Source: Candidatus Limnocylindria bacterium (GTDB lineage Bacteria > Chloroflexota > Limnocylindria > P2-11E). Taken from it: a stretch of DNA of 64,000 nucleotides. The number at the start of each line of letters is the position of its first letter. Within the stretch, counting starts at the first letter, position 1. The position numbers were made by a program, and so were the translations under genes. The notes under the pieces are model-generated. The model saw nothing but the letters and a program-made list of their open reading frames with translations. It made no database searches and was not told the origin of the DNA. The stretch spans positions 3,628 to 67,627 of the forward strand of contig DASWCU010000064.1 in the NCBI GenBank assembly GCA_036389935.1. Reading direction: 5' to 3'. This document shows, piece after piece, positions 3,553 to 10,324 of this stretch.

Positions 3553-3904
3553 GGGGATGCGTGGTTTCGACAGGGCAGGCGAACGTATCGCTGCGAGCCG
3601 AGGAACGCCGTTCCCCCTCGTTAATCCGAACGGCGGCCAGATAACTGGCACCAACACGTACGCTCTCGCTGCCTAGTCAGTGAGCGTCCTCCCGGTCTCC
3701 CCTCCGCGGGCCGGGAAGGGCGTCATAAGCGGAGGTGCGGTCCGCCGATCGGCCGGTAGGCGGACCCAAGATCCACGGCCTGGCGGGACCGAAAGCGCGT
3801 CGGTGCGCGTTCGGGCCCCGCGAGATCTGAAATCGCCGGCCACGCTCGTAGACGCGATACGGTCAACGGCCTTGGACGGGGAGTTCGACCCTCCCCCATC
3901 TCCA
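3553..3904 (+). ncRNA. ssrA: tmRNA (SsrA), not represented in the ORF track
   Basis: 5' GGGGATGCGTGGTTTCGACAGGG; 3' GGACGGGGAGTTCGACCCTCCCCCATCTCCA with T-arm; acceptor stem GGGGATG/CATCTCC includes G3:U70; internal tag reading frame ...ACC AAC ACG TAC GCT CTC GCT GCC TAG (…TNTYALAA*) ending at 3676; CCA not fully encoded. Confidence 0.85.
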
Positions 3905-4016
3905 CAGATGGCGGCTCATCCCGAGCCGCCGCGCGCGTTGTATGGCTCAGCAAGCTTTGGCCGAATCGCGCCATTCCTTGATACTCGAAAACCGCTGATC
4001 GCCGCGCTCACACAGT

Positions 4017-4169
4017 TTTGGCCATTCGCTAAGCCCTCAAACCACGGGATCGCCAGCATCCTGACGCAGCAGCTCTCTCGAGAGAACGGCCAAAGATTCA
4101 CGCCTCTGGTCGGGAACGGCCAGACCTTTTGCGGTCACAGTGGTAGGAACCGTCAATCTCTGGCCGTTC
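4017..4169. repeat. cluster of four short related sites (GAAyGGCCArAGATTs) in both orientations in the tmRNA 3' flank, including a 19-bp imperfect inverted repeat
   Basis: 4084-4102 GAACGGCCAAAGATTCACG versus reverse complement of 4151-4169 GAACGGCCAGAGATTGACG (17/19); additional copies at 4114-4126 and 4017-4030 (reverse); locally lower GC, non-coding. Confidence 0.5.
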
Positions 4170-4244
4170 GCGGAGCGCTTTAGCTGACTGCTACGAAGAG
4201 CTGGGTTCTCCTGTCAGCCTCTGGGAAGCGATGATCTTGAGACC

Positions 4245-4778
4245 TTGGTCACTCTCGATATTCGACGCCACGCCGAGGCCGCGAAGGAACCCGGTAGCGA
4301 GAGTGCGTTGTCTCCCGCAGGGCTCTCGAGTGCCTTGCGTCTGGCGTCAGGGGCACCGATGTATTCGCTTGTGATCTGCAGTCCACGCCCTCGGACGCAC
4401 GACACGGCGCTCGCGATCGCGGGCCGCGTCGACCGCGCCGAGCCGCTTCTCGATGTCGCGCCAGATGATGTGATCACCGTCGAGGAGTACTTCGCCCTTC
4501 GCTCCGGTATCGAGGTCGCAGCCTTCATTGCGGGCCGACCTGCGGCATCGCGATTCGCGCATCGCCAGCTGGGATTCTGGCGAGACCTCTTGTCTACCCT
4601 GAGTGAAGGTGAATGCGCCCTTATCGTGACCCACGGTGCGAACGTCGAGTTGCCCGCTGTCGCCCTCGCACTCGAACTCGGGGTTCCGCCGCTCCCGGTG
4701 CCCGTTCAGTACATCGAAGGCGTCCGCGTCCACCAGCTCGATCGGCGGCATGAAGTGGAGCCGCTACCGGCGCGGTAG
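4245..4778 (+). CDS. histidine phosphatase superfamily protein (SixA/PGAM-like)
   Basis: N-terminal 'LDIRRHAEA' (RHG-type motif), 'LSPAGLSSALRLA', C-terminal 'LIVTHG'; TTG start with weak RBS. Confidence 0.5.
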   Translation: MVTLDIRRHAEAAKEPGSESALSPAGLSSALRLASGAPMYSLVICSPRPRTHDTALAIAGRVDRAEPLLDVAPDDVITVEEYFALRSGIEVAAFIAGRPAASRFAHRQLGFWRDLLSTLSEGECALIVTHGANVELPAVALALELGVPPLPVPVQYIEGVRVHQLDRRHEVEPLPAR

Positions 4779-5228
4779 GAGGGGCCCGTGATGCGTCGGT
4801 ACGTCGTGTATGCGCGACTGGGCTGCTCTGAGCCGCCGGGTCGCGCTCACGCACCCGGAGCGGTATCACAGCACTCGATGCCAGAAACCCGCCGCCCGGG
4901 CGACGGGGGTCATGAAGCGAACCGAGCGGTCAGCGCGACCACGTGAGGGAGTTCTCGAAAGCCGGCGACGACGCGTCGGTAACGTCTCCGACTTCCTCTA
5001 CCTGACCCATGACACGCGCCCGCGGGCCGCGGCGCCGGGCACCTGAGCCGATTGCTGTCGTTTGTGCACGAAAGGTAACGACCATGAGGGCGAAAGACAT
5101 CGTCTATTAGACGACCACAAATGCTCATCGCGCTTCAGACCCTTGCGGACGGCGGGCGCAAACTTGCGCCTGGCGCGTGCGTGATCCTCGCCGGAGGGGA
5201 GTGCTGCTTCGCGCTTGGCCACTACGGC

Positions 5229-6236
5229 TCAGGTTGGCGCTCGCGCCGTTCGCTTCATCTGTTCAAGATGTTCTTGGACGTGCCCGAGCCCCAAACCCAG
5301 CTGCATGCGGACGGTGTCGCACTGCCCATTCGGAGCGACCCGAATGAGCGCGAGATCCGACTCGCCGAGGGCGGCGAGCCGCCCTTGCCACGTCGAGCGC
5401 ATCGCAAGCCAACGCTCGCGTACGCCGATCGGCCAGGGCACCAGACGATCGCGGTAGTACCGGTACCACGAAGCGATGGCGCGAACGCGTGGATCCCGTT
5501 CCGCGGCTCGTCGGAGCGCCGCATCCGCGACGAGGATGGCGTCGAGCTCGTCGGCTGCGGGCCGCGCGTCGTCATCCGGCCCGTCGTCGTCCGCGTATGG
5601 AAGCGATGGCGCGGGGCCTTCGCCGGCCAGGTGGGCGAGCCACGCAGCCTGCAGCGATCGGACCGTGCGGGCGACCTTGCGGGGAGTCCATCGAACGCGG
5701 CTGGGCCGCTGGTTCGGTCCGACCTGCTCGAACGCGCCGGGTTCGCCATTCTTGAGCCGCGCGACGAGCTCCCTCGCCGCCTCCGCCTGCGCGCGGTCCG
5801 CATCGAGCGGCCACGGTTCCAATCGGCGGAGGCCGATACCGAAACCACCCGCGGCATGGTCAAGCGTGCGGCGGATCGTCCATCCGTCACCTGGGTCTCG
5901 GTCCCATGCGCCTTTGGGGAGGCTGTCAAGGAACTCGTCGACCTCGGCAGCGACCTCGCTGACGCGCGTCATTGCGGCCCGAAGGAGCGCCGGCGGCGTG
6001 GGGATCAGTGAGTCGGGGATCAGCCACCACGGCAGGGTCCAATCGATCACCTCGTCTGCATCACCGAGCTCGATCGGATGCCCGAGCCTTCGGAACGCCT
6101 CGGCCTCGTCATGCGCGCGCGTCCGGCAGCGGGCGATCGCCTCTTCACGGGTGGGGGCGTCCTCCGCCGCGGCACCCGGCACCTGCGGAGCGGTCGTCCA
6201 CCAGGTCGCCGGCGACGCCGTGACGTACAGCCGCAC
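5229..6236 (-). CDS. DinB/YfiT-like (DinB_2 / MDMPI-N-like) family protein, start uncertain
   Basis: 'DGWTIRRTLDHAAGG' resembles the DinB_2 metal-binding helix; the long ORF's upstream part overlaps the neighbouring gene, so I place the start at the GTG right after that gene's stop (alternative ATG at 5972). Confidence 0.4.
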   Translation of the reverse strand: MRLYVTASPATWWTTAPQVPGAAAEDAPTREEAIARCRTRAHDEAEAFRRLGHPIELGDADEVIDWTLPWWLIPDSLIPTPPALLRAAMTRVSEVAAEVDEFLDSLPKGAWDRDPGDGWTIRRTLDHAAGGFGIGLRRLEPWPLDADRAQAEAARELVARLKNGEPGAFEQVGPNQRPSRVRWTPRKVARTVRSLQAAWLAHLAGEGPAPSLPYADDDGPDDDARPAADELDAILVADAALRRAAERDPRVRAIASWYRYYRDRLVPWPIGVRERWLAMRSTWQGRLAALGESDLALIRVAPNGQCDTVRMQLGLGLGHVQEHLEQMKRTARAPT

Positions 6237-6247
6237 GGCGAGGAAGC

Positions 6248-7663
6248 CTATTCCTCGTTCGCAGGTCGGCCGCTCCGAAGCGCATCCGTCGCGACGACTC
6301 CGACCGTGTTCGTCAGCGCGTCCTCGAAGCCGACGGTGACGTCCTGCGCGCCGCTTGCCGCGTGCGTCACCTCGTGCAGGAGCGCACCCGCGTAGCGCGC
6401 GATATCGGCCAGCTGATCGCGCCGGATCACCACCTCGCCGGAGCGCCCATCCCACAGGCCCACGACCTCGTCGCTGCCGGTCGCGTTGAGGCGCATGGTC
6501 GTGGAGATGCGGACGGCCCGCAGCGCCGCTGGGCGCTCGCCCCGCAGGGCGATGATCTCGTCGGTCCGGGCGAAGACGGTGCGCTCGTCGGGGGTCAGGT
6601 CGTCCTGGTCGACGAAGTCGAACGAGAAGCTCTCGTTCCACTGCAGCTCGTAGCGCTTCAGGTCGACCATCGGATTGCCGTCGATGTCGAGCACGCCGGC
6701 GAGCTTGCGGCGGAGCGCGTCCGGCACCGTGACGATCCGGCGGCCATCGGACCTCGCTCGATCCACGAAAGCGGCGGCAAGCCCGATCTCATGCGACGTC
6801 ATGAAGATGACCCGCTCCGCGGCATTGAGGATGCGGCACGCGTGCAGCGCGACGTCGATCCAGCTGTTCTCGTCATGCAATCGACCGCTCGAGAAGCCCT
6901 CGAGGTCCGCGGCCAGCGCGCGCGCCACCTCTTGGGATGAGGCCGCCAGCAGGATCGCCTTCACCCGGTCCGTGTACGCCGTCCGTCCCACGTTGGTGCG
7001 CTCGCGGTTGAGCGCGCGGCGCAGTGCGGCGGTCATCGACGTCACGTCGTAGCTGAAGAGGAATCGTTCCTCCTCAGCGACGCGCAGGCCGTTCACGTAA
7101 ACGCGTGCCGGCATCTTCTCCACGCGTCGCAGGACGGACCCGTGAGGTGTCCGTTCGAGCAGCTCGTCGCCGGCGTACTTGAGGAAGAACGACTTCGCCT
7201 CGGCGACGTCCTCGTCACGGACGCCGGTCAGCGTGATGTCGGTGCCCAGCGACCCCGGATCCCCCGGTGCATCCACGGTGACGTGGAGCGTCTTCAGATC
7301 TTCGAAGCCGTGCTTGGCGGTGCGCTTCAGCCTCATCCGGTGGTGACGCGAATCGATCGTCACGTCGATGCGCCGGCGGTCGAACGTCGCGAGCGCATCC
7401 TTCAGGCCGACGCCGAACTTACCGACCAGATCGGTGCGCTCGAGCTTCTCGCGGTTCTCCTTCTGGGTGAGGTGCTCGTAGCGCAGGCCCCGCCCGAAGT
7501 CGCGGACATGCCACGAGCCGTCACGGTCCTTCGTGATCTCCGGTTCGGCCGTGTCCGTGAGCGCCGCTTCATCCAGGGCGTTCGCGATGAGCTCGCGAAC
7601 GGCATGCGCGACCGTCCAGTGCTCGAGCACCCGCTCGACGTTGAGATCGAAATCCCGCCCCAC
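6248..7663 (-). CDS. Hsp90/GHKL-type ATPase domain protein with C-terminal HExxH (possible zincin/ImmA-like) motif
   Basis: Bergerat-fold motifs 'RELIANALDE' (N box), 'DFGRGL' (G1), 'GKFGVGLKDAL' (G2) closely parallel HtpG N-domain; 'LLHEVTHAASG' near C-terminus. Confidence 0.7.
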   Translation of the reverse strand: MGRDFDLNVERVLEHWTVAHAVRELIANALDEAALTDTAEPEITKDRDGSWHVRDFGRGLRYEHLTQKENREKLERTDLVGKFGVGLKDALATFDRRRIDVTIDSRHHRMRLKRTAKHGFEDLKTLHVTVDAPGDPGSLGTDITLTGVRDEDVAEAKSFFLKYAGDELLERTPHGSVLRRVEKMPARVYVNGLRVAEEERFLFSYDVTSMTAALRRALNRERTNVGRTAYTDRVKAILLAASSQEVARALAADLEGFSSGRLHDENSWIDVALHACRILNAAERVIFMTSHEIGLAAAFVDRARSDGRRIVTVPDALRRKLAGVLDIDGNPMVDLKRYELQWNESFSFDFVDQDDLTPDERTVFARTDEIIALRGERPAALRAVRISTTMRLNATGSDEVVGLWDGRSGEVVIRRDQLADIARYAGALLHEVTHAASGAQDVTVGFEDALTNTVGVVATDALRSGRPANEE

Positions 7664-7754
7664 GATGCCGTGAGATGATGCCAGCCGCTCCGGGCGGATT
7701 CACGCGGAGCCACGGGGAGTCGCCCCGGCGATCGCCCCGCCTACTCTGAGGGGC

Positions 7755-8273
7755 ATGCTGGCGGACGTCGTCGTCGGAGACGCCGGTGCCAAAGGGAAAG
7801 GCGTCTTCGCCCGACGCGGCTTTCGCGCGGGCGAGTTCATCTTCCGCCGCCGGCACGGTCGCATCGTCACGCGGGCGGAAGCCGAGGATCTCTCCGAAGA
7901 CGAGCGTCGTCATCTCTGTGAGCTCGACTTCGAGCGCAGCGCCGTGCTGCTCCCACCGGGCTGCTACCTGAATCACGCCTGCGAGCCGAACGCGATGCGG
8001 AGCGGGGTCAAGGTCTTTGCCTGGCGCGGCATCAGGGCCGGCGAGGAGATCACGATCGATTACCGGTTGAACGCCTTCGGCGCCGACCGCTGGGCGTGCG
8101 CCTGCGGATCGCCGAGCTGTGTCGGGGAGATCACCGGCAGCTTCTTCGCGCTGGATCCCGCCCGGCGGCAGCTCTACCTGCCATACGCGCCGAGCTTCAT
8201 CCGCCGCGAGCACCGGCGGCGCCTGACGTCGGGAGCGCTCGGCCCGCCTACTTCGGTGGCTGCCTCAGGCTGA
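7755..8273 (+). CDS. SET-domain protein (putative lysine methyltransferase)
   Basis: 'GKGVFA', 'NHACEPN', 'GEEITIDY' and post-SET 'CACGSPSC' motifs; 172 aa. Confidence 0.7.
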   Translation: MLADVVVGDAGAKGKGVFARRGFRAGEFIFRRRHGRIVTRAEAEDLSEDERRHLCELDFERSAVLLPPGCYLNHACEPNAMRSGVKVFAWRGIRAGEEITIDYRLNAFGADRWACACGSPSCVGEITGSFFALDPARRQLYLPYAPSFIRREHRRRLTSGALGPPTSVAASG

Positions 8274-8655
8274 ACCAGTTGCCCGAGTCGTCGCGGAAGA
8301 CGGCCTCCACGCCGTACGGCCGCTCGGCCGGCTCCTGGAGGAAGGTGACGCCCTTCGCTTTGAGGTCCTCGTACGTCCGGCGGCAGTCGTCGGTGTCCAT
8401 CACGCCGGCACCGAAGACGCCCTTCGCGAGCAGCGCCTTGATCTGCGCTCCGACCTCCGGCTCGACCATCGGCGGCTTCGGGTCGGCGAGCAGGAGCTGG
8501 AAATCGCTCTGCCCCTTCGGCGCGACGGTGAGCCAGCGGAAGCCATCGGCCGTGATGTCCATGCGCGTGTCGAAGCCGAGCTTCTCCGTGTAGAAGGCCT
8601 TCGCCGCCTCCTGGTCCTTCACCCAAACGGTCGCGTGGGACATCGAGTTGATCAT
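8248..8655 (-). CDS. VOC/glyoxalase-bleomycin resistance family protein
   Basis: 135 aa with a typical VOC fold signature (HATVWVKD...GFD...). Confidence 0.65.
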   Translation of the reverse strand: MINSMSHATVWVKDQEAAKAFYTEKLGFDTRMDITADGFRWLTVAPKGQSDFQLLLADPKPPMVEPEVGAQIKALLAKGVFGAGVMDTDDCRRTYEDLKAKGVTFLQEPAERPYGVEAVFRDDSGNWFSLRQPPK

Positions 8656-9200
8656 CGTCGTTCCTCCCGATCGTTCTCGCGGGCGACCCTACGTCGCTCC
8701 GACGAGCGCGCGCTTCTCCCGGATTGCGGAGCTTCGCGCGCGCTCCACATCAGGATGAAGCAGCCAGGGATCGCCGGCCGCTCGCCCGACCGCACGGCGC
8801 GGTCGCGATACTCGGACGGCGAGAGACCGACCGCCTTCTTGAAGCGGGCGCTGAACGAGCCGAGGCTCGAGAAACCGACGACGAAGCAGATCTCGGTGAC
8901 CGTGAGATTCGCGCCGCGCAGGAGGTCCTTCGCGCGCTCGATACGCCGGCCGCTCAGGTAACGACCGGGCGTGCTACCGAAGGTCGCACGGAACGTGCGG
9001 ACGAAGTGATAGCGCGAGTAGCCGGCCTCGGCCGCCAGCCCGTCCAGATCGAGCCGGGCACCGTAGTCGCGGTCCATGAGGTCCTTCGCGCGGCGTACGT
9101 GTTCAAGCCGGTCGGCGTCCTCGCGGCCCACAGCAAGACGGTACCCAAGCGCGCGGCGAACGGCCGCGGGGCCTTTGGCCCGGCCGAGACCGCGCGCCAA
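8652..9200 (-). CDS. AraC-family DNA-binding-domain-only regulator (MarA/SoxS-like)
   Basis: Two HTH_18 repeats 'YSRYHFVRTFRATFG' and 'VTEICFVVGFSSLGSFSARFKKAVGLSPSEYR'; no sensor domain; stop overlaps the start of the downstream VOC gene. Confidence 0.65.
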   Translation of the reverse strand: MARGLGRAKGPAAVRRALGYRLAVGREDADRLEHVRRAKDLMDRDYGARLDLDGLAAEAGYSRYHFVRTFRATFGSTPGRYLSGRRIERAKDLLRGANLTVTEICFVVGFSSLGSFSARFKKAVGLSPSEYRDRAVRSGERPAIPGCFILMWSAREAPQSGRSARSSERRRVARENDREERR

Positions 9201-9202
9201 CC

Positions 9203-10324
9203 ATGGCCGTCGCCTCCGATCAGCCTCGGCTGTACGCTGCCCGCGCGGGCACTGCCGATTGGGGGATCTCCGTGCTCAAGGCCCGTGGCGTCGCGCATCG
9301 CGGCCCCGAGCCGTCCTGGGTGCCGCCATCCGACTGGCGACGGTTCGAGACGCTCGACGCGCACGCCGCGGGCGAACCGCTGCGCCTCGTGGTCTCGGGC
9401 GTCCCGCCGATCCCCGGAGCGACGATGGTCGAACGACGGCTCTACGCGCGCGAGCACCTCGATGACCTCCGTCGCGCGCTGATGTTCGAGCCGCGCGGAC
9501 ACGCCGACATGTACGGCGCGATCCTCACGGCCCCGGCCACGGACGACGCGGACGCCGGCGTGCTGTTCATGCACAACGAGGGCTGGAGCACCATGTGCGG
9601 CCACGGCGTCATCGCCGTCGTCACCGCGGGTATCGAGGCGGGACTCCTTCCGCGGCGCTCACCGGTCCGGCTGGACACGCCGGCCGGACGCGTGTCGGCG
9701 CACTCGACCATCTCCGGCGAGCGCGTCGAGCGGGTGCGCTTCGAGAACGTGCCGGCGTTCGTGCTGGCGCTCGACGAGAGCGTCGAGGTCGGCGGCCTCG
9801 GGCGCGTGCGCTACGACCTCGCCTTCGGCGGGGCGTTCTACGCGTACGTGGACGCGACGGCCCTCGGGTTCGAGCTCGTCCCGGAACGCGCCCGCGAGCT
9901 CATCGAAGCCGGCAGCGCCATCAAGGCGGCGGTCGTGCGCGCGCGGCCCATCGAGCACCCCTTCGAGCCGGAGCTGTCATTCCTCTACGGCACGATCTTC
10001 GTCGGGCCCGGCCGGAACGCGCCCGGGAGCTCACGACACGTCTGCATCTTCGCCGCCGGCGAGCTCGATCGGTCACCGACCGGTACGGGCGTGAGCGGCC
10101 GGGCCGCCATCGAGCACGCCCGCGGCCGCGTGGCGATCGGCGAGCGGTTCGTGGTGGAGAGCATCATCGGCTCCGAGTTCACGGGCCTCGTCGAACGCGC
10201 GACGACGTTCGGCCCGCATCCGGCGGTCGTCCCGAGCGTCGAGGGCCGCGCGTGGATCACCGGGCGCCACCGCTTCTACGTCGCGCCCGACGATCCGTTC
10301 GCGGGCGGCTTCCTGATCCGGTAG
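9203..10324 (+). CDS. proline racemase / hydroxyproline epimerase-dehydratase family protein
   Basis: 'DAHAAGEPLRLVV', 'SPTGTGVSGRAA' and other Pro_racemase family motifs; true start may be downstream of the first in-frame start. Confidence 0.7.
   Translation: MAVASDQPRLYAARAGTADWGISVLKARGVAHRGPEPSWVPPSDWRRFETLDAHAAGEPLRLVVSGVPPIPGATMVERRLYAREHLDDLRRALMFEPRGHADMYGAILTAPATDDADAGVLFMHNEGWSTMCGHGVIAVVTAGIEAGLLPRRSPVRLDTPAGRVSAHSTISGERVERVRFENVPAFVLALDESVEVGGLGRVRYDLAFGGAFYAYVDATALGFELVPERARELIEAGSAIKAAVVRARPIEHPFEPELSFLYGTIFVGPGRNAPGSSRHVCIFAAGELDRSPTGTGVSGRAAIEHARGRVAIGERFVVESIIGSEFTGLVERATTFGPHPAVVPSVEGRAWITGRHRFYVAPDDPFAGGFLIR

What the first reader, a model, noticed from the sequence alone, without database searches (positions are those of the whole stretch)
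6248..8273. Divergent pair: Hsp90-like GHKL ATPase with C-terminal HExxH, and a SET-domain protein
A 471-aa protein with a textbook Hsp90/MutL/MORC-type ATPase N-domain (N, G1, G2 boxes) and an HExxH motif near the C-terminus (LLHEVTHA) sits 91 bp head-to-head with a 172-aa SET-domain protein carrying the full NHxCxPN / EELxxDY / post-SET Cys set. The pair lies in the accessory-like stretch after ssrA and ahead of a DinB-like gene. GHKL ATPase plus SET resembles eukaryotic chromatin-modifier pairings and some conflict-system modules. I cannot assign it to a described system.
Basis: partly seen in the sequence, partly recalled or inferred. Interest (0 to 1): 0.55.

Follow-up and report, generated by a model that had tools for sequence, protein, structure and literature searches.

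The report
Stand-alone GHKL–zincin gene beside unrelated SET
Both genes and their domains are real, but the head-to-head pairing is a chance adjacency seen in one lineage only; the gene worth following is a widespread, uncharacterised ATPase–metalloprotease fusion that moves between bacteria and archaea and often sits among anti-phage defence genes.

Summary
The 172-aa protein is a bona fide SET-domain protein (Pfam E=6e-14). The 471-aa protein has an Hsp90-like GHKL N-terminal plus middle-domain fold (Foldseek E~1e-8). It also has a C-terminal minimal zincin metallopeptidase whose HExxH is kept in 95% of divergent relatives.

The interpretation as a GHKL+SET module is not supported. In 81 homologous loci from bacteria and archaea, at most 1 of 146 flanking genes could be SET or DinB, and tblastn found none. 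SET homologues lie in unrelated housekeeping contexts. Only strains ≥99% identical to the window repeat the pair.

The GHKL–zincin protein belongs to the uncharacterised Pfam family MPN635_N (PF25856). The family is patchy, sometimes plasmid-borne, and about 50% identical across domains of life. It has no conserved partner. Its immediate neighbours are enriched for SMC/ABC ATPases, nucleases and R-M genes, and one copy sits inside a type I R-M operon. Some members carry TPR, LRR, Sel1 or FGE-sulfatase sensor fusions.

The best reading is a single-protein conflict or defence module, with an ATP-gated clamp controlling a protease. This is analogous to the GHKL-nuclease VcSduA. The function is inferred, not shown.

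The parts
6248..7663 (-). Gene for a 471-aa GHKL ATPase-zincin fusion of Pfam family MPN635_N (PF25856), stop codon included
   Evidence: ORF. An identical protein, P0001, carries precomputed PF25856. More than 5,112 homologues. AF2 model pLDDT 79.8.
7169..7663 (-). GHKL (Bergerat-fold) ATP-binding domain, about aa 1-165. N box at 7571..7594, G1 at 7487..7501, G2 at 7406..7423. Domain boundary is approximate.
   Evidence: Motifs, invariant in A1. Foldseek matches to Hsp90 N-domains, GyrB and ParE. Sub-threshold HATPase_c/HATPase_c_3 and the sacsin-N ATP-binding model.
6674..7168 (-). Middle region, about aa 166-330. It aligns with the Hsp90/TRAP1 middle domain and contains the invariant LNRERxNVGRxAYxDR loop (aa 218-233). 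Boundaries are approximate.
   Evidence: Foldseek alignments to full-length Hsp90 and to TRAP1 NTD-middle (4ivg) extend beyond the N-domain. Invariant columns. The loop is modelled with pLDDT below 50.
6251..6673 (-). C-terminal minimal zincin metallopeptidase domain, about aa 331-471. HExxH codons at 6362..6376. Candidate third ligands are D441 and E447.
   Evidence: Domain model pLDDT 90.4. Foldseek best hits are abylysin, selecase and jannalysin (minigluzincins) and the M48-like 3c37, probability 0.82-0.99. Pfam tally: SprT-like 19/32, DUF6782 16/32, MPTase-PolyVal 15/32, M76 12/32. Best PDB profile hit is Wss1p. HExxH kept in 117/123 representatives.
7664..7754 (.). 91-bp divergent intergenic region between the GHKL-zincin and SET genes
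   Evidence: Sequence. No sigma-70-like consensus found, which is uninformative for this high-GC organism.
7755..8273 (+). Gene for a 172-aa stand-alone SET-domain methyltransferase with post-SET Cys cluster. Functionally unlinked to the GHKL gene by comparative evidence.
   Evidence: Pfam SET E=6.3e-14. PDB sequence hits to Set2/NSD/ASH1L/MLL SET domains down to 1e-10. 1,197 homologues, named ones from Chloroflexota. Unrelated contexts.
5229..6236 (-). 335-aa DinB_2-family gene, co-directional with the GHKL gene and 11 nt downstream of it. Probably co-transcribed here, but the linkage is not conserved.
   Evidence: Gene call in the identical contig L084. Pfam DinB_2 30.6 bits. Junction sequence. 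No DinB in other loci.

Best explanation
The locus holds two unrelated genes that happen to be neighbours in one lineage, probably a Limnocylindria-like Chloroflexota. The SET gene is a lineage-typical stand-alone SET-domain methyltransferase. The 471-aa gene is a self-contained member of the uncharacterised MPN635_N family, which is horizontally mobile. It has an N-terminal GHKL ATPase with an Hsp90-like middle region, fused to a C-terminal minimal zincin metallopeptidase. Proposed mechanism (inferred): like other GHKL proteins, it dimerises through its N-domains on ATP binding and forms a clamp on a ligand, either DNA or a client protein. That ATP-driven conformational cycle gates the C-terminal zincin, which then cleaves a protein target. 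The module would work as a single-protein conflict or defence device. Its logic is analogous to the experimentally validated GHKL-nuclease VcSduA (paraMORC3 / Shedu type I-D), with a protease in place of the nuclease. Shown here: the gene structure, the domain identities, conservation of the catalytic motifs, the absence of a conserved partner, the patchy cross-domain distribution, plasmid carriage, and the enrichment of defence-type neighbours. Inferred: dimerisation, ATP gating, the protease substrate, and the defence role.
For: Stand-alone nature: neighbour clustering found no family present in more than 9 of 80 loci. Pfam and PADLOC tallies of 146 flanking ORFs agree. Mobility and patchiness: 449 hits among 185,579 species genomes; 21 of the best 80 loci are archaeal by record title (my count); identities are 47-64% with no regard to taxonomy, for example 56% to a Hadesarchaeon and 55% to Chloroflexia. 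There are 13 plasmid records, including conjugative ones and haloarchaeal megaplasmids, and 15 IMG/VR contigs. Defence-type context: flanking ORFs compared with ORFs ≥5 kb away in the same loci give AAA_23 10 vs 2, SMC_N 9 vs 2, AAA_15 8 vs 2, RmuC 5 vs 0, Endonuc_Holl 5 vs 0, LmuB 9 vs 2, AriA 7 vs 3. In Salinibacter pSR56 the gene is inserted between hsdS and hsdR of a type I R-M operon. In Croceicoccus it lies beside IS110, CoiA and SbcCD. Active enzyme: the N/G1/G2 boxes and HExxH are invariant, and HExxH is kept in 117/123 representatives at 50% clustering. Sensor-type C-terminal fusions (TPR, Sel1, LRR, FGE-sulfatase, Bles03) occur in family members. Tandem duplication of the GHKL+middle half with a single zincin (P0002, P0023) fits N-domain dimerisation. 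Analogy: VcSduA is a single-protein GHKL-effector defence in which both activities are required (PMC12137116). paraMORC GHKLs with C-terminal effectors occur in R-M contexts (PMC2292703).
Against: There is no experimental datum for any family member. There are no hits to any PADLOC-DB v2 model. The family is unusually conserved for a defence gene (about 50% identity between bacteria and archaea; more than 90 invariant columns in A1). Most neighbourhoods are not recognisably defensive: only roughly a quarter of flanking ORFs have ATPase, nuclease or R-M-type domains, and the window copy itself sits among metabolic or regulatory genes (glyoxalase, AraC, proline racemase, DinB_2). Recurrent SbcCD, RmuC and resolvase-like neighbours fit DNA repair as well as defence. 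Zincin family placement rests on individually weak matches (best Pfam 5.5e-5, Foldseek E 0.03).
Confidence: 0.55

Rival explanations
1. One reading: GHKL-HExxH and SET (with or without DinB) form a two- or three-gene conflict or chromatin-like module, co-regulated from the 91-bp divergent promoter region.
For: Head-to-head arrangement with a short shared intergenic region. DinB_2 lies 11 nt downstream of the GHKL gene. The arrangement is retained in three metagenomic contigs.
Against: Those three contigs are 99-100% identical to the window, so they add no independent support. SET and DinB each occur in at most 1 of 146 flanking ORFs in 81 loci. There are no tblastn hits in 80 loci. GHKL relatives at about 70% identity lack both genes. 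SET relatives at about 70% identity lack the GHKL gene.
Confidence: 0.04
2. DNA-repair enzyme: a GHKL DNA clamp coupled to a SprT/Wss1/Spartan-like protease that removes DNA-protein crosslinks or protein-blocked ends, cooperating with SbcCD/Mre11-Rad50-type nucleases.
For: The C-terminal domain's best sequence affinities are SprT-like (19/32 members), Wss1p and Spartan. Co-directional sbcD-sbcC-GHKL arrangements occur in L006, L018, L019, L052 and L072, and SbcCD lies nearby in L020, L021, L081, L082 and L090. RmuC and Holliday-resolvase-like endonucleases flank 5 loci each. High sequence conservation is more typical of repair proteins.
Against: The family is found in only about 0.24% of species genomes (a lower bound). 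It is plasmid-borne, embedded in an R-M operon, and fused to TPR/LRR/Sel1/FGE-sulfatase sensors, which are not repair-like. The adjacent 'SbcC-like' proteins hit defence ATPase models such as LmuB, AriA, GajA and PtuA. More than 85% of loci have no SbcCD.
Confidence: 0.2
3. Hsp90-like chaperone-protease for protein quality control: client binding by the N+M domains and degradation by the zincin.
For: The best fold matches over N plus middle domains are Hsp90, HtpG and TRAP1. TPR fusions recall Hsp90 co-chaperone interactions.
Against: There is no sequence-level relationship to HtpG (PDB phmmer finds only GyrB/ParE at E>0.1). No Hsp90 C-terminal dimerisation domain is present. The patchy, mobile distribution and the nuclease/ATPase/R-M neighbours do not fit a proteostasis role.
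Confidence: 0.1
4. Regulatory protease that controls an adjacent operon, in the manner of CapP/CapH, ImmA/ImmR or IrrE/DdrO, with the GHKL domain acting as the damage or infection sensor.
For: Weak similarity of some members to Peptidase_M78/IrrE (4/32; IrrE 3dte E=2.1). Frequent position next to defence-type operons. There is precedent for regulators encoded beside immune operons, including a GHKL-kinase one, CapK (PMC13373217).
Against: No conserved adjacent HTH repressor substrate: HTH_11 occurs in 2 of 146 flanking ORFs. CapK has a different architecture (HTH-STAS-GHKL kinase). The neighbouring operons are too heterogeneous, and the orientation is not consistently upstream.
Confidence: 0.07

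Closest known systems
VcSduA / paraMORC3 (Shedu type I-D), a single-protein GHKL-nuclease anti-phage defence (PMC12137116; PMC2292703)
   Same: One polypeptide with an N-terminal GHKL ATPase carrying all motifs, a middle clamp-like region and a C-terminal effector. Stand-alone gene without conserved neighbours. Sporadic distribution in bacteria and archaea, consistent with lateral transfer.
   Different: There the effector is a PD-(D/E)xK nuclease (DUF4263); here it is a minimal zincin peptidase. No sequence-level membership was shown, and the PADLOC Shedu models do not hit. Defence activity is untested for this family.
Hsp90 / HtpG / TRAP1
   Same: Best structural match over the N-terminal ATPase plus middle domain (Foldseek E 1e-8 to 1e-7). 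The N, G1 and G2 boxes are present.
   Different: No significant sequence similarity. No Hsp90 C-terminal dimerisation domain; a zincin replaces it. The distribution is patchy and accessory rather than housekeeping.
Minimal zincins: minigluzincins (abylysin, jannalysin, selecase) and SprT/Wss1/Spartan-type peptidases
   Same: A catalytic domain of about 110-140 residues with a beta-sheet, an HExxH helix and a following helix carrying an invariant acidic residue. Fold matches at probability up to 0.99. Sequence-profile affinities to SprT-like, DUF6782, MPTase-PolyVal and M76.
   Different: All matches are below the family thresholds. The third metal ligand is unassigned (D441 or E447, rather than the His of Wss1/Spartan). 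The domain is fused to a GHKL ATPase, an architecture I did not find described in the literature searched.
Bacterial and archaeal stand-alone SET-domain proteins (for the 172-aa gene)
   Same: About 160-aa SET plus post-SET. Closest solved relatives by sequence are Set2/NSD/ASH1L/MLL SET domains, and the bacterial BurB also hits.
   Different: The substrate is unknown. No eukaryote-like partner domains are present, and there is no conserved genomic partner.

Membership tests
GHKL ATPase superfamily (Bergerat fold) | Motif I/N box (ExxxNxxD), G1 box (DxGxG) and G2 box (GxxGxG) in order | tested here: met
   E24-N28-D31, D55-G57-G59 and G81-G84-G86, all invariant in 25 sequences.
GHKL ATPase superfamily (Bergerat fold) | Fold similarity to solved GHKL domains | tested here: met
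   Foldseek: Hsp90/HtpG/TRAP1 at E 1e-8 to 1e-7; ParE, GyrB, MutL, TopoVI-B and Topo II ATPase at E 2e-4 to 3e-2.
GHKL ATPase superfamily (Bergerat fold) | Pfam HATPase_c / HATPase_c_3 above the gathering score | tested here: not met
   19.4 and 18.0 bits against cut-offs of 26.4 and 25. Similar sub-threshold hits occur in relatives. This is a limitation of sequence-model sensitivity, outweighed by the motifs and the fold.
Pfam PF25856 (MPN635_N) | Hit to the family model | tested here: met
   Precomputed PF25856 on P0001 (100% identical to the window protein) and on all 120 listed homologues. The model is absent from the local Pfam copy, so it was not rescanned.
Hsp90/HtpG family proper | Sequence homology to HtpG, plus the C-terminal dimerisation domain | tested here: not met
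   No Hsp90 among the PDB sequence hits. The C-terminus is a zincin domain.
MORC / paraMORC1-5 (Iyer et al. 2008) | GHKL plus S5-fold domain with family-specific motifs, and conserved operons with SF-II helicases, methylases or REases | tested here: inconclusive
   R-M, helicase and REase neighbours occur only sporadically. No reference paraMORC sequences were available for direct comparison. None of the described paraMORC C-terminal domains is a zincin.
Zincin metallopeptidases | HExxH on a helix, with a downstream third ligand on the next helix, and a zincin fold | tested here: met
   H430, E431, H434, D441 and E447 are invariant in A2. HExxH in 117/123 representatives. Minigluzincin and M48 fold matches at probability 0.82-0.99, though E is only 0.03-0.07.
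SprT-like / WLM (Wss1, Spartan) | Significant match to PF10263/WLM models, and HExxH(x)nH with a His third ligand | tested here: inconclusive
   19/32 members match SprT-like at E<1, best 5.5e-5. Wss1p E=0.07 and Spartan E=0.42. The aligned third-ligand position is Asp, not His.
SET domain (PF00856) | Pfam hit above the gathering score; NHxCxPN and ELxF/YDY-type motifs; post-SET CxCxxxxC | tested here: met
   52.7 bits against 22.4. Motifs at 73-79, 97-103 and 115-122. PDB hits to Set2/NSD2 down to E 1e-10.
Catalogued anti-phage defence systems (PADLOC-DB v2.0.0) | Hit to any system component model | tested here: not met
   No hits at E≤0.01 for the GHKL-zincin, SET or DinB-region proteins.
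Shedu type I-D (VcSduA) | C-terminal DUF4263 PD-(D/E)xK nuclease | tested here: not met
   No such Pfam hit. The C-terminal domain is a zincin.
ssrA-integrated genomic island | Integrase next to tmRNA, and a direct repeat of the tmRNA 3' end bounding the island | tested here: not met
   No such repeat within 26 kb downstream. None of the seven ORFs scanned between 4.2 and 10.3 kb is an integrase. Only a modest GC dip.

The most novel reading that the evidence does not exclude
The MPN635_N family is a previously unrecognised single-protein immune or conflict system, present in both bacteria and archaea. In it, an Hsp90-like GHKL ATPase clamp senses an invader-associated cue, DNA or a conserved protein, and licenses a fused minimal zincin to cleave a conserved target. 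This would be the first GHKL-gated protease effector. The unusually high cross-domain conservation would then reflect a universally conserved ligand or substrate.
Probability: 0.3. Interest if true: 0.7.

Novelty: new variant of a known kind. Interest (0 to 1): 0.4.

Why it matters
The GHKL+SET 'chromatin-like module' would have been striking, but it is not real, which saves follow-up effort. What remains is a large family: more than 5,000 proteins at 90% clustering and 1,649 clusters at 50%. It has two intact catalytic centres, a Pfam entry that is only a place-holder name, and no literature. GHKL-effector fusions have just been validated as single-gene phage defences with nucleases. A protease-armed version would extend that principle and add to the small set of protease-based prokaryotic immune effectors. 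Its high conservation makes it attractive for structure and biochemistry. If it instead turns out to be a DNA-protein-crosslink protease working with SbcCD/Mre11-Rad50, it would be a prokaryotic counterpart of Spartan/Wss1 coupled to an ATPase.

Tried and rejected
2. Literature searches for PF25856, MPN635, GHKL+SprT, GHKL+metallopeptidase+conflict systems, GHKL+anti-phage+protease, and Hsp90-like+defense islands found no description of this architecture. MPN635 is mentioned only as a non-essential M. pneumoniae gene.
3. CapK (a GHKL kinase beside immune operons) was considered and rejected. It is an HTH-STAS-GHKL anti-sigma-type kinase with a STAS partner.
4. An ssrA island was rejected: no att repeat and no integrase.
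5. The 'DinB' tblastn hits in L001-L003 are an alternate-frame artefact of the long ORF overlapping the GHKL gene.
6. The sigma-70 promoter scan of the intergenic region found nothing and is uninformative for this organism.
7. Phage carriage was tested. There are only remote partial hits in INPHARED and 15 of 2.9 million IMG/VR contigs, so this is not primarily a phage gene.
8. A fixed multi-gene system with SbcCD was considered. It is present in only about 12 of 85 loci, in varying orientation, so it is not a defining partner.
Full report
OBSERVATION. ORF 6248..7663(-) encodes 471 aa and ORF 7755..8273(+) encodes 172 aa, and 91 bp separate them. In the 471-aa protein these are the GHKL N box (ELIANALD, aa 24-31), G1 (DFGRG, 55-59), G2 (GKFGVG, 81-86) and HEVTH (430-434). 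In the 172-aa protein they are NHACEPN (73-79), EEITIDY (97-103) and the post-SET CACGSPSC (115-122). Both are genuine genes, with more than 5,112 homologues for the first and 1,197 for the second. tmRNA lies at 3553..3905.

One correction concerns the DinB-like gene. The 470-aa ORF 5229..6641 overlaps the GHKL gene in another frame at its 5' end. That overlap produced spurious tblastn hits inside GHKL homologues. The real DinB_2 gene is 5229..6236 (335 aa), starting at a GTG 11 nt after the GHKL stop codon.

DOMAIN IDENTITIES. SET is secure. Pfam gives E=6.3e-14, above the gathering score, and the best solved relatives by sequence are Set2, NSD2, ASH1L and MLL SET domains.

The GHKL call is sub-threshold in Pfam (HATPase_c 19.4 bits, HATPase_c_3 18 bits) and in NCBIfam (the sacsin-N ATP-binding model, 25 bits against a cut-off of 50). 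It is nevertheless well supported in two other ways. All three boxes are invariant in alignment A1. The AlphaFold model (pLDDT 79.8) matches Hsp90, HtpG and TRAP1 over the N plus middle domains at E 1e-8 to 1e-7, followed by ParE, GyrB, MutL, TopoVI-B and Topo II ATPase domains.

I aligned the C-terminal ~140 residues from 32 divergent members (A2). H430, E431, H434, D441 and E447 are invariant. A profile of A2 finds Wss1p and Spartan as its best, though weak, PDB sequence hits. Scanned one by one, 19/32 members touch Pfam SprT-like, 16/32 DUF6782 (putative metallopeptidase), 15/32 MPTase-PolyVal and 12/32 M76. Modelled alone, the domain is high confidence (pLDDT 90.4, pTM 0.83). Its best fold matches are the minigluzincins abylysin, selecase and jannalysin and an M48-like peptidase, with probability 0.82-0.99 and E 0.03-0.07. 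HExxH is retained in 117 of 123 representatives at 50% clustering.

IS THE PAIR A SYSTEM? No. I fetched 80 loci for GHKL homologues from species-representative genomes, five loci for the closest metagenomic relatives, and plasmid examples.

- tblastn with the window's SET, DinB, glyoxalase, AraC and His-phosphatase proteins found nothing in the 80 genome loci apart from the frame artefact.
- Unbiased clustering of all ORFs within 4 kb of the gene found no family present in more than 9 of the 80 loci.
- I scanned the 146 ORFs that directly flank the gene in 81 loci against Pfam. Neither SET nor DinB_2 is among the families hit by two or more neighbours.
- Relatives at about 70% identity (L081-L083) are flanked by SbcC/SbcD-like genes, a helicase and unknown genes.
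- From the other side, SET homologues at about 70% identity sit beside ArgRS/AHSA1/MacB, methyltransferases/DAO/prenyltransferase, or methyltransferases/SDR genes, with no GHKL gene.
- The pair recurs only in L084, L085 and L086, which are 99-100% identical to the window.

The adjacency is therefore a lineage-specific accident. The co-directional DinB_2 gene may be co-transcribed here, but it is equally unconserved.

WHAT THE 471-AA GENE IS. Every homologue, including one identical to the window protein, carries the precomputed Pfam family PF25856, 'MPN635_N'. This is a place-holder family. I found no literature on it beyond a note that mpn635 is non-essential in M. pneumoniae.

The family is large: 1,649 clusters at 50% identity with E≤1e-3, and 354 with E≤1e-30. 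It is also patchy: 449 hits among 185,579 species genomes, which is a lower bound because the scan used only two peptide patterns. By my count of the record titles, 21 of the best 80 loci are archaeal (Bathyarchaeia, Aenigmatarchaeota, Nanoarchaeota, Nitrosopumilus, Thorarchaeota, Hadesarchaea and others). Identities to the window protein (47-64%) do not follow taxonomy, which indicates horizontal transfer.

The gene occurs on 13 plasmids and megaplasmids of Bacillus, Euzebya, Croceicoccus, Salinibacter and haloarchaea, annotated only as 'ATP-binding protein'. It is rare in phages.

Neighbourhoods are heterogeneous, but they are enriched right next to the gene for SMC/ABC-type ATPases and nucleases. 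Flanking ORFs compared with ORFs ≥5 kb away in the same loci give:

- AAA_23: 10 vs 2
- SMC_N: 9 vs 2
- AAA_15: 8 vs 2
- RmuC: 5 vs 0
- Endonuc_Holl: 5 vs 0
- PADLOC LmuB: 9 vs 2
- PADLOC AriA: 7 vs 3
- PADLOC GajA: 6 flanking, and absent from the control's listed top families

The distal control set contains cytochrome oxidase, chaperonin, glutamine synthetase and RNA polymerase genes, but also DISARM, BREX and Dpd components, so some copies lie in larger islands.

On Salinibacter ruber pSR56 the gene sits between hsdS and hsdR of a type I R-M operon. From my own knowledge, that is a known slot for embedded defence genes. In Croceicoccus it lies between an IS110 transposase and CoiA/SbcCD genes. 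A minority of loci show a co-directional sbcD-sbcC-GHKL arrangement: L006, L018, L052, L072 and L019.

Family members also carry C-terminal TPR, Sel1, BspA-type LRR, FGE-sulfatase or Bles03 extensions. Three representatives have a tandem duplication of the GHKL+middle half followed by a single zincin.

MECHANISM (INFERRED). It is established for GyrB, MutL, Hsp90 and MORC that GHKL proteins dimerise through their N-domains on ATP binding and work as clamps or switches. The tandem-duplicated variants look like covalent versions of such a dimer. Both catalytic centres are under purifying selection. The gene needs no fixed partner, and sensor-type repeats are sometimes appended. The most economical model is an ATP-gated clamp that controls the fused protease.

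The closest validated precedent is VcSduA (paraMORC3 / Shedu type I-D). It is a stand-alone GHKL-nuclease that protects against phages and requires both activities (PMC12137116). The 2008 paraMORC survey had already linked GHKL+effector fusions to R-M contexts, but it lists REase, TIR and an unknown HxH domain, not a peptidase (PMC2292703). I put about 0.45-0.55 on a conflict or defence role.

The main rival, at about 0.2, is a DNA-protein-crosslink or blocked-end protease cooperating with SbcCD-type nucleases. It is suggested by the SprT/Wss1 affinities, the SbcCD, RmuC and resolvase neighbours, and the unusually high conservation. Chaperone-protease and CapP-like regulator models fit less well. 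There is no HtpG-level sequence homology, no Hsp90 C-terminal domain, and no conserved HTH partner.

UNEXPLAINED. The family is strikingly conserved for a mobile accessory gene. Identity between bacterial and archaeal members is about 50%. An invariant LNRERxNVGRxAYxDR loop (aa 218-233) is modelled as disordered. This hints at a universally conserved ligand or target, and I could not resolve it.

VERDICT. The proposed GHKL+SET(+DinB) module is not supported. The SET gene is an ordinary lineage-typical stand-alone SET protein. The GHKL-zincin gene is an uncharacterised, catalogued-but-unstudied family, best regarded as a candidate new variant of the GHKL-effector single-protein conflict systems. 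Interest is moderate (0.4): the pair itself is uninteresting, and the family is a reasonable experimental target.

Noticed in passing
window 5229..6641 (-): The 470-aa ORF is a high-GC artefact at its 5' end, where it overlaps the GHKL gene in another frame. The real DinB_2-family gene is 5229..6236 (335 aa), with a GTG start 11 nt after the GHKL stop. Its N-terminal ~170 aa have no Pfam match.
   Followed up: yes
window 8248..10324: The SET 3' end overlaps a convergent glyoxalase/bleomycin-resistance-family gene (8248..8655, -) by 26 nt. That gene overlaps an AraC-family regulator gene (8652..9200, -) by 4 nt, which suggests an operon. A proline-racemase-family gene (9203..10324, +) diverges from the AraC gene with only a 2-bp gap, so the annotated starts may need revision.
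   Followed up: partly
window 3553..5000: tmRNA with tag peptide GTNTYALAA. GC drops to 0.63-0.66 just downstream (3.5-5 kb), against 0.70-0.73 in the flanks. There is no att-like repeat or integrase, and a weak His_Phos_1-like ORF lies at 4245..4778.
   Followed up: partly
P0002 (823 aa), P0023 (772 aa), P0145 (815 aa): These family members have a tandem duplication of the GHKL+middle half followed by one zincin domain. They look like a covalent pseudo-dimer of the ATPase module.
   Followed up: partly
L006, L018, L052, L072, L019 (about 5.1-9.4 kb in each locus): A co-directional sbcD-like, sbcC-like, GHKL-zincin gene order occurs in DPANN archaea, Nitrosopumilus and an Acidobacterium. It could be a sub-type that works with an Mre11/Rad50-like nuclease.
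   Followed up: partly
L091 (Salinibacter ruber M8 plasmid pSR56) 2952..12676: The GHKL-zincin gene lies between hsdS and hsdR of a type I R-M operon. Directly after hsdR come a separate gene annotated 'SprT family zinc-dependent metalloprotease', a second methyltransferase and a GIY-YIG nuclease.
   Followed up: no
L038, L043, L047, L073 (about 7.4-7.95 kb); also L033, L044, L062: A ~170-aa protein of Pfam Endonuc_Holl (an endonuclease related to the archaeal Holliday junction resolvase) lies immediately upstream of, and co-directional with, the GHKL-zincin gene in four loci, and nearby in three more.
   Followed up: partly
L098, L100-L103, L105 (IMG/VR contigs of about 35-40 kb): Six related viral or proviral contigs carry a GHKL-zincin homologue (43% identity) within a few kb of a contig end, in the manner of accessory cargo.
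   Followed up: no
GHKL-zincin protein aa 218-233 (window 6965..7012, -): The motif LNRERxNVGRxAYxDR is invariant, yet it lies in a loop that AlphaFold models with pLDDT below 50. It is a candidate catalytic or ATP-sensing loop, or a ligand-binding loop, and remains unexplained.
   Followed up: no
P0124, P0131, P0191, P0204, P0223, P0246: Six of 123 divergent representatives have lost the HExxH motif. One of them, P0124 (HELTY), carries a Bles03 C-terminal fusion. These may be inactivated or repurposed peptidase domains.
   Followed up: no
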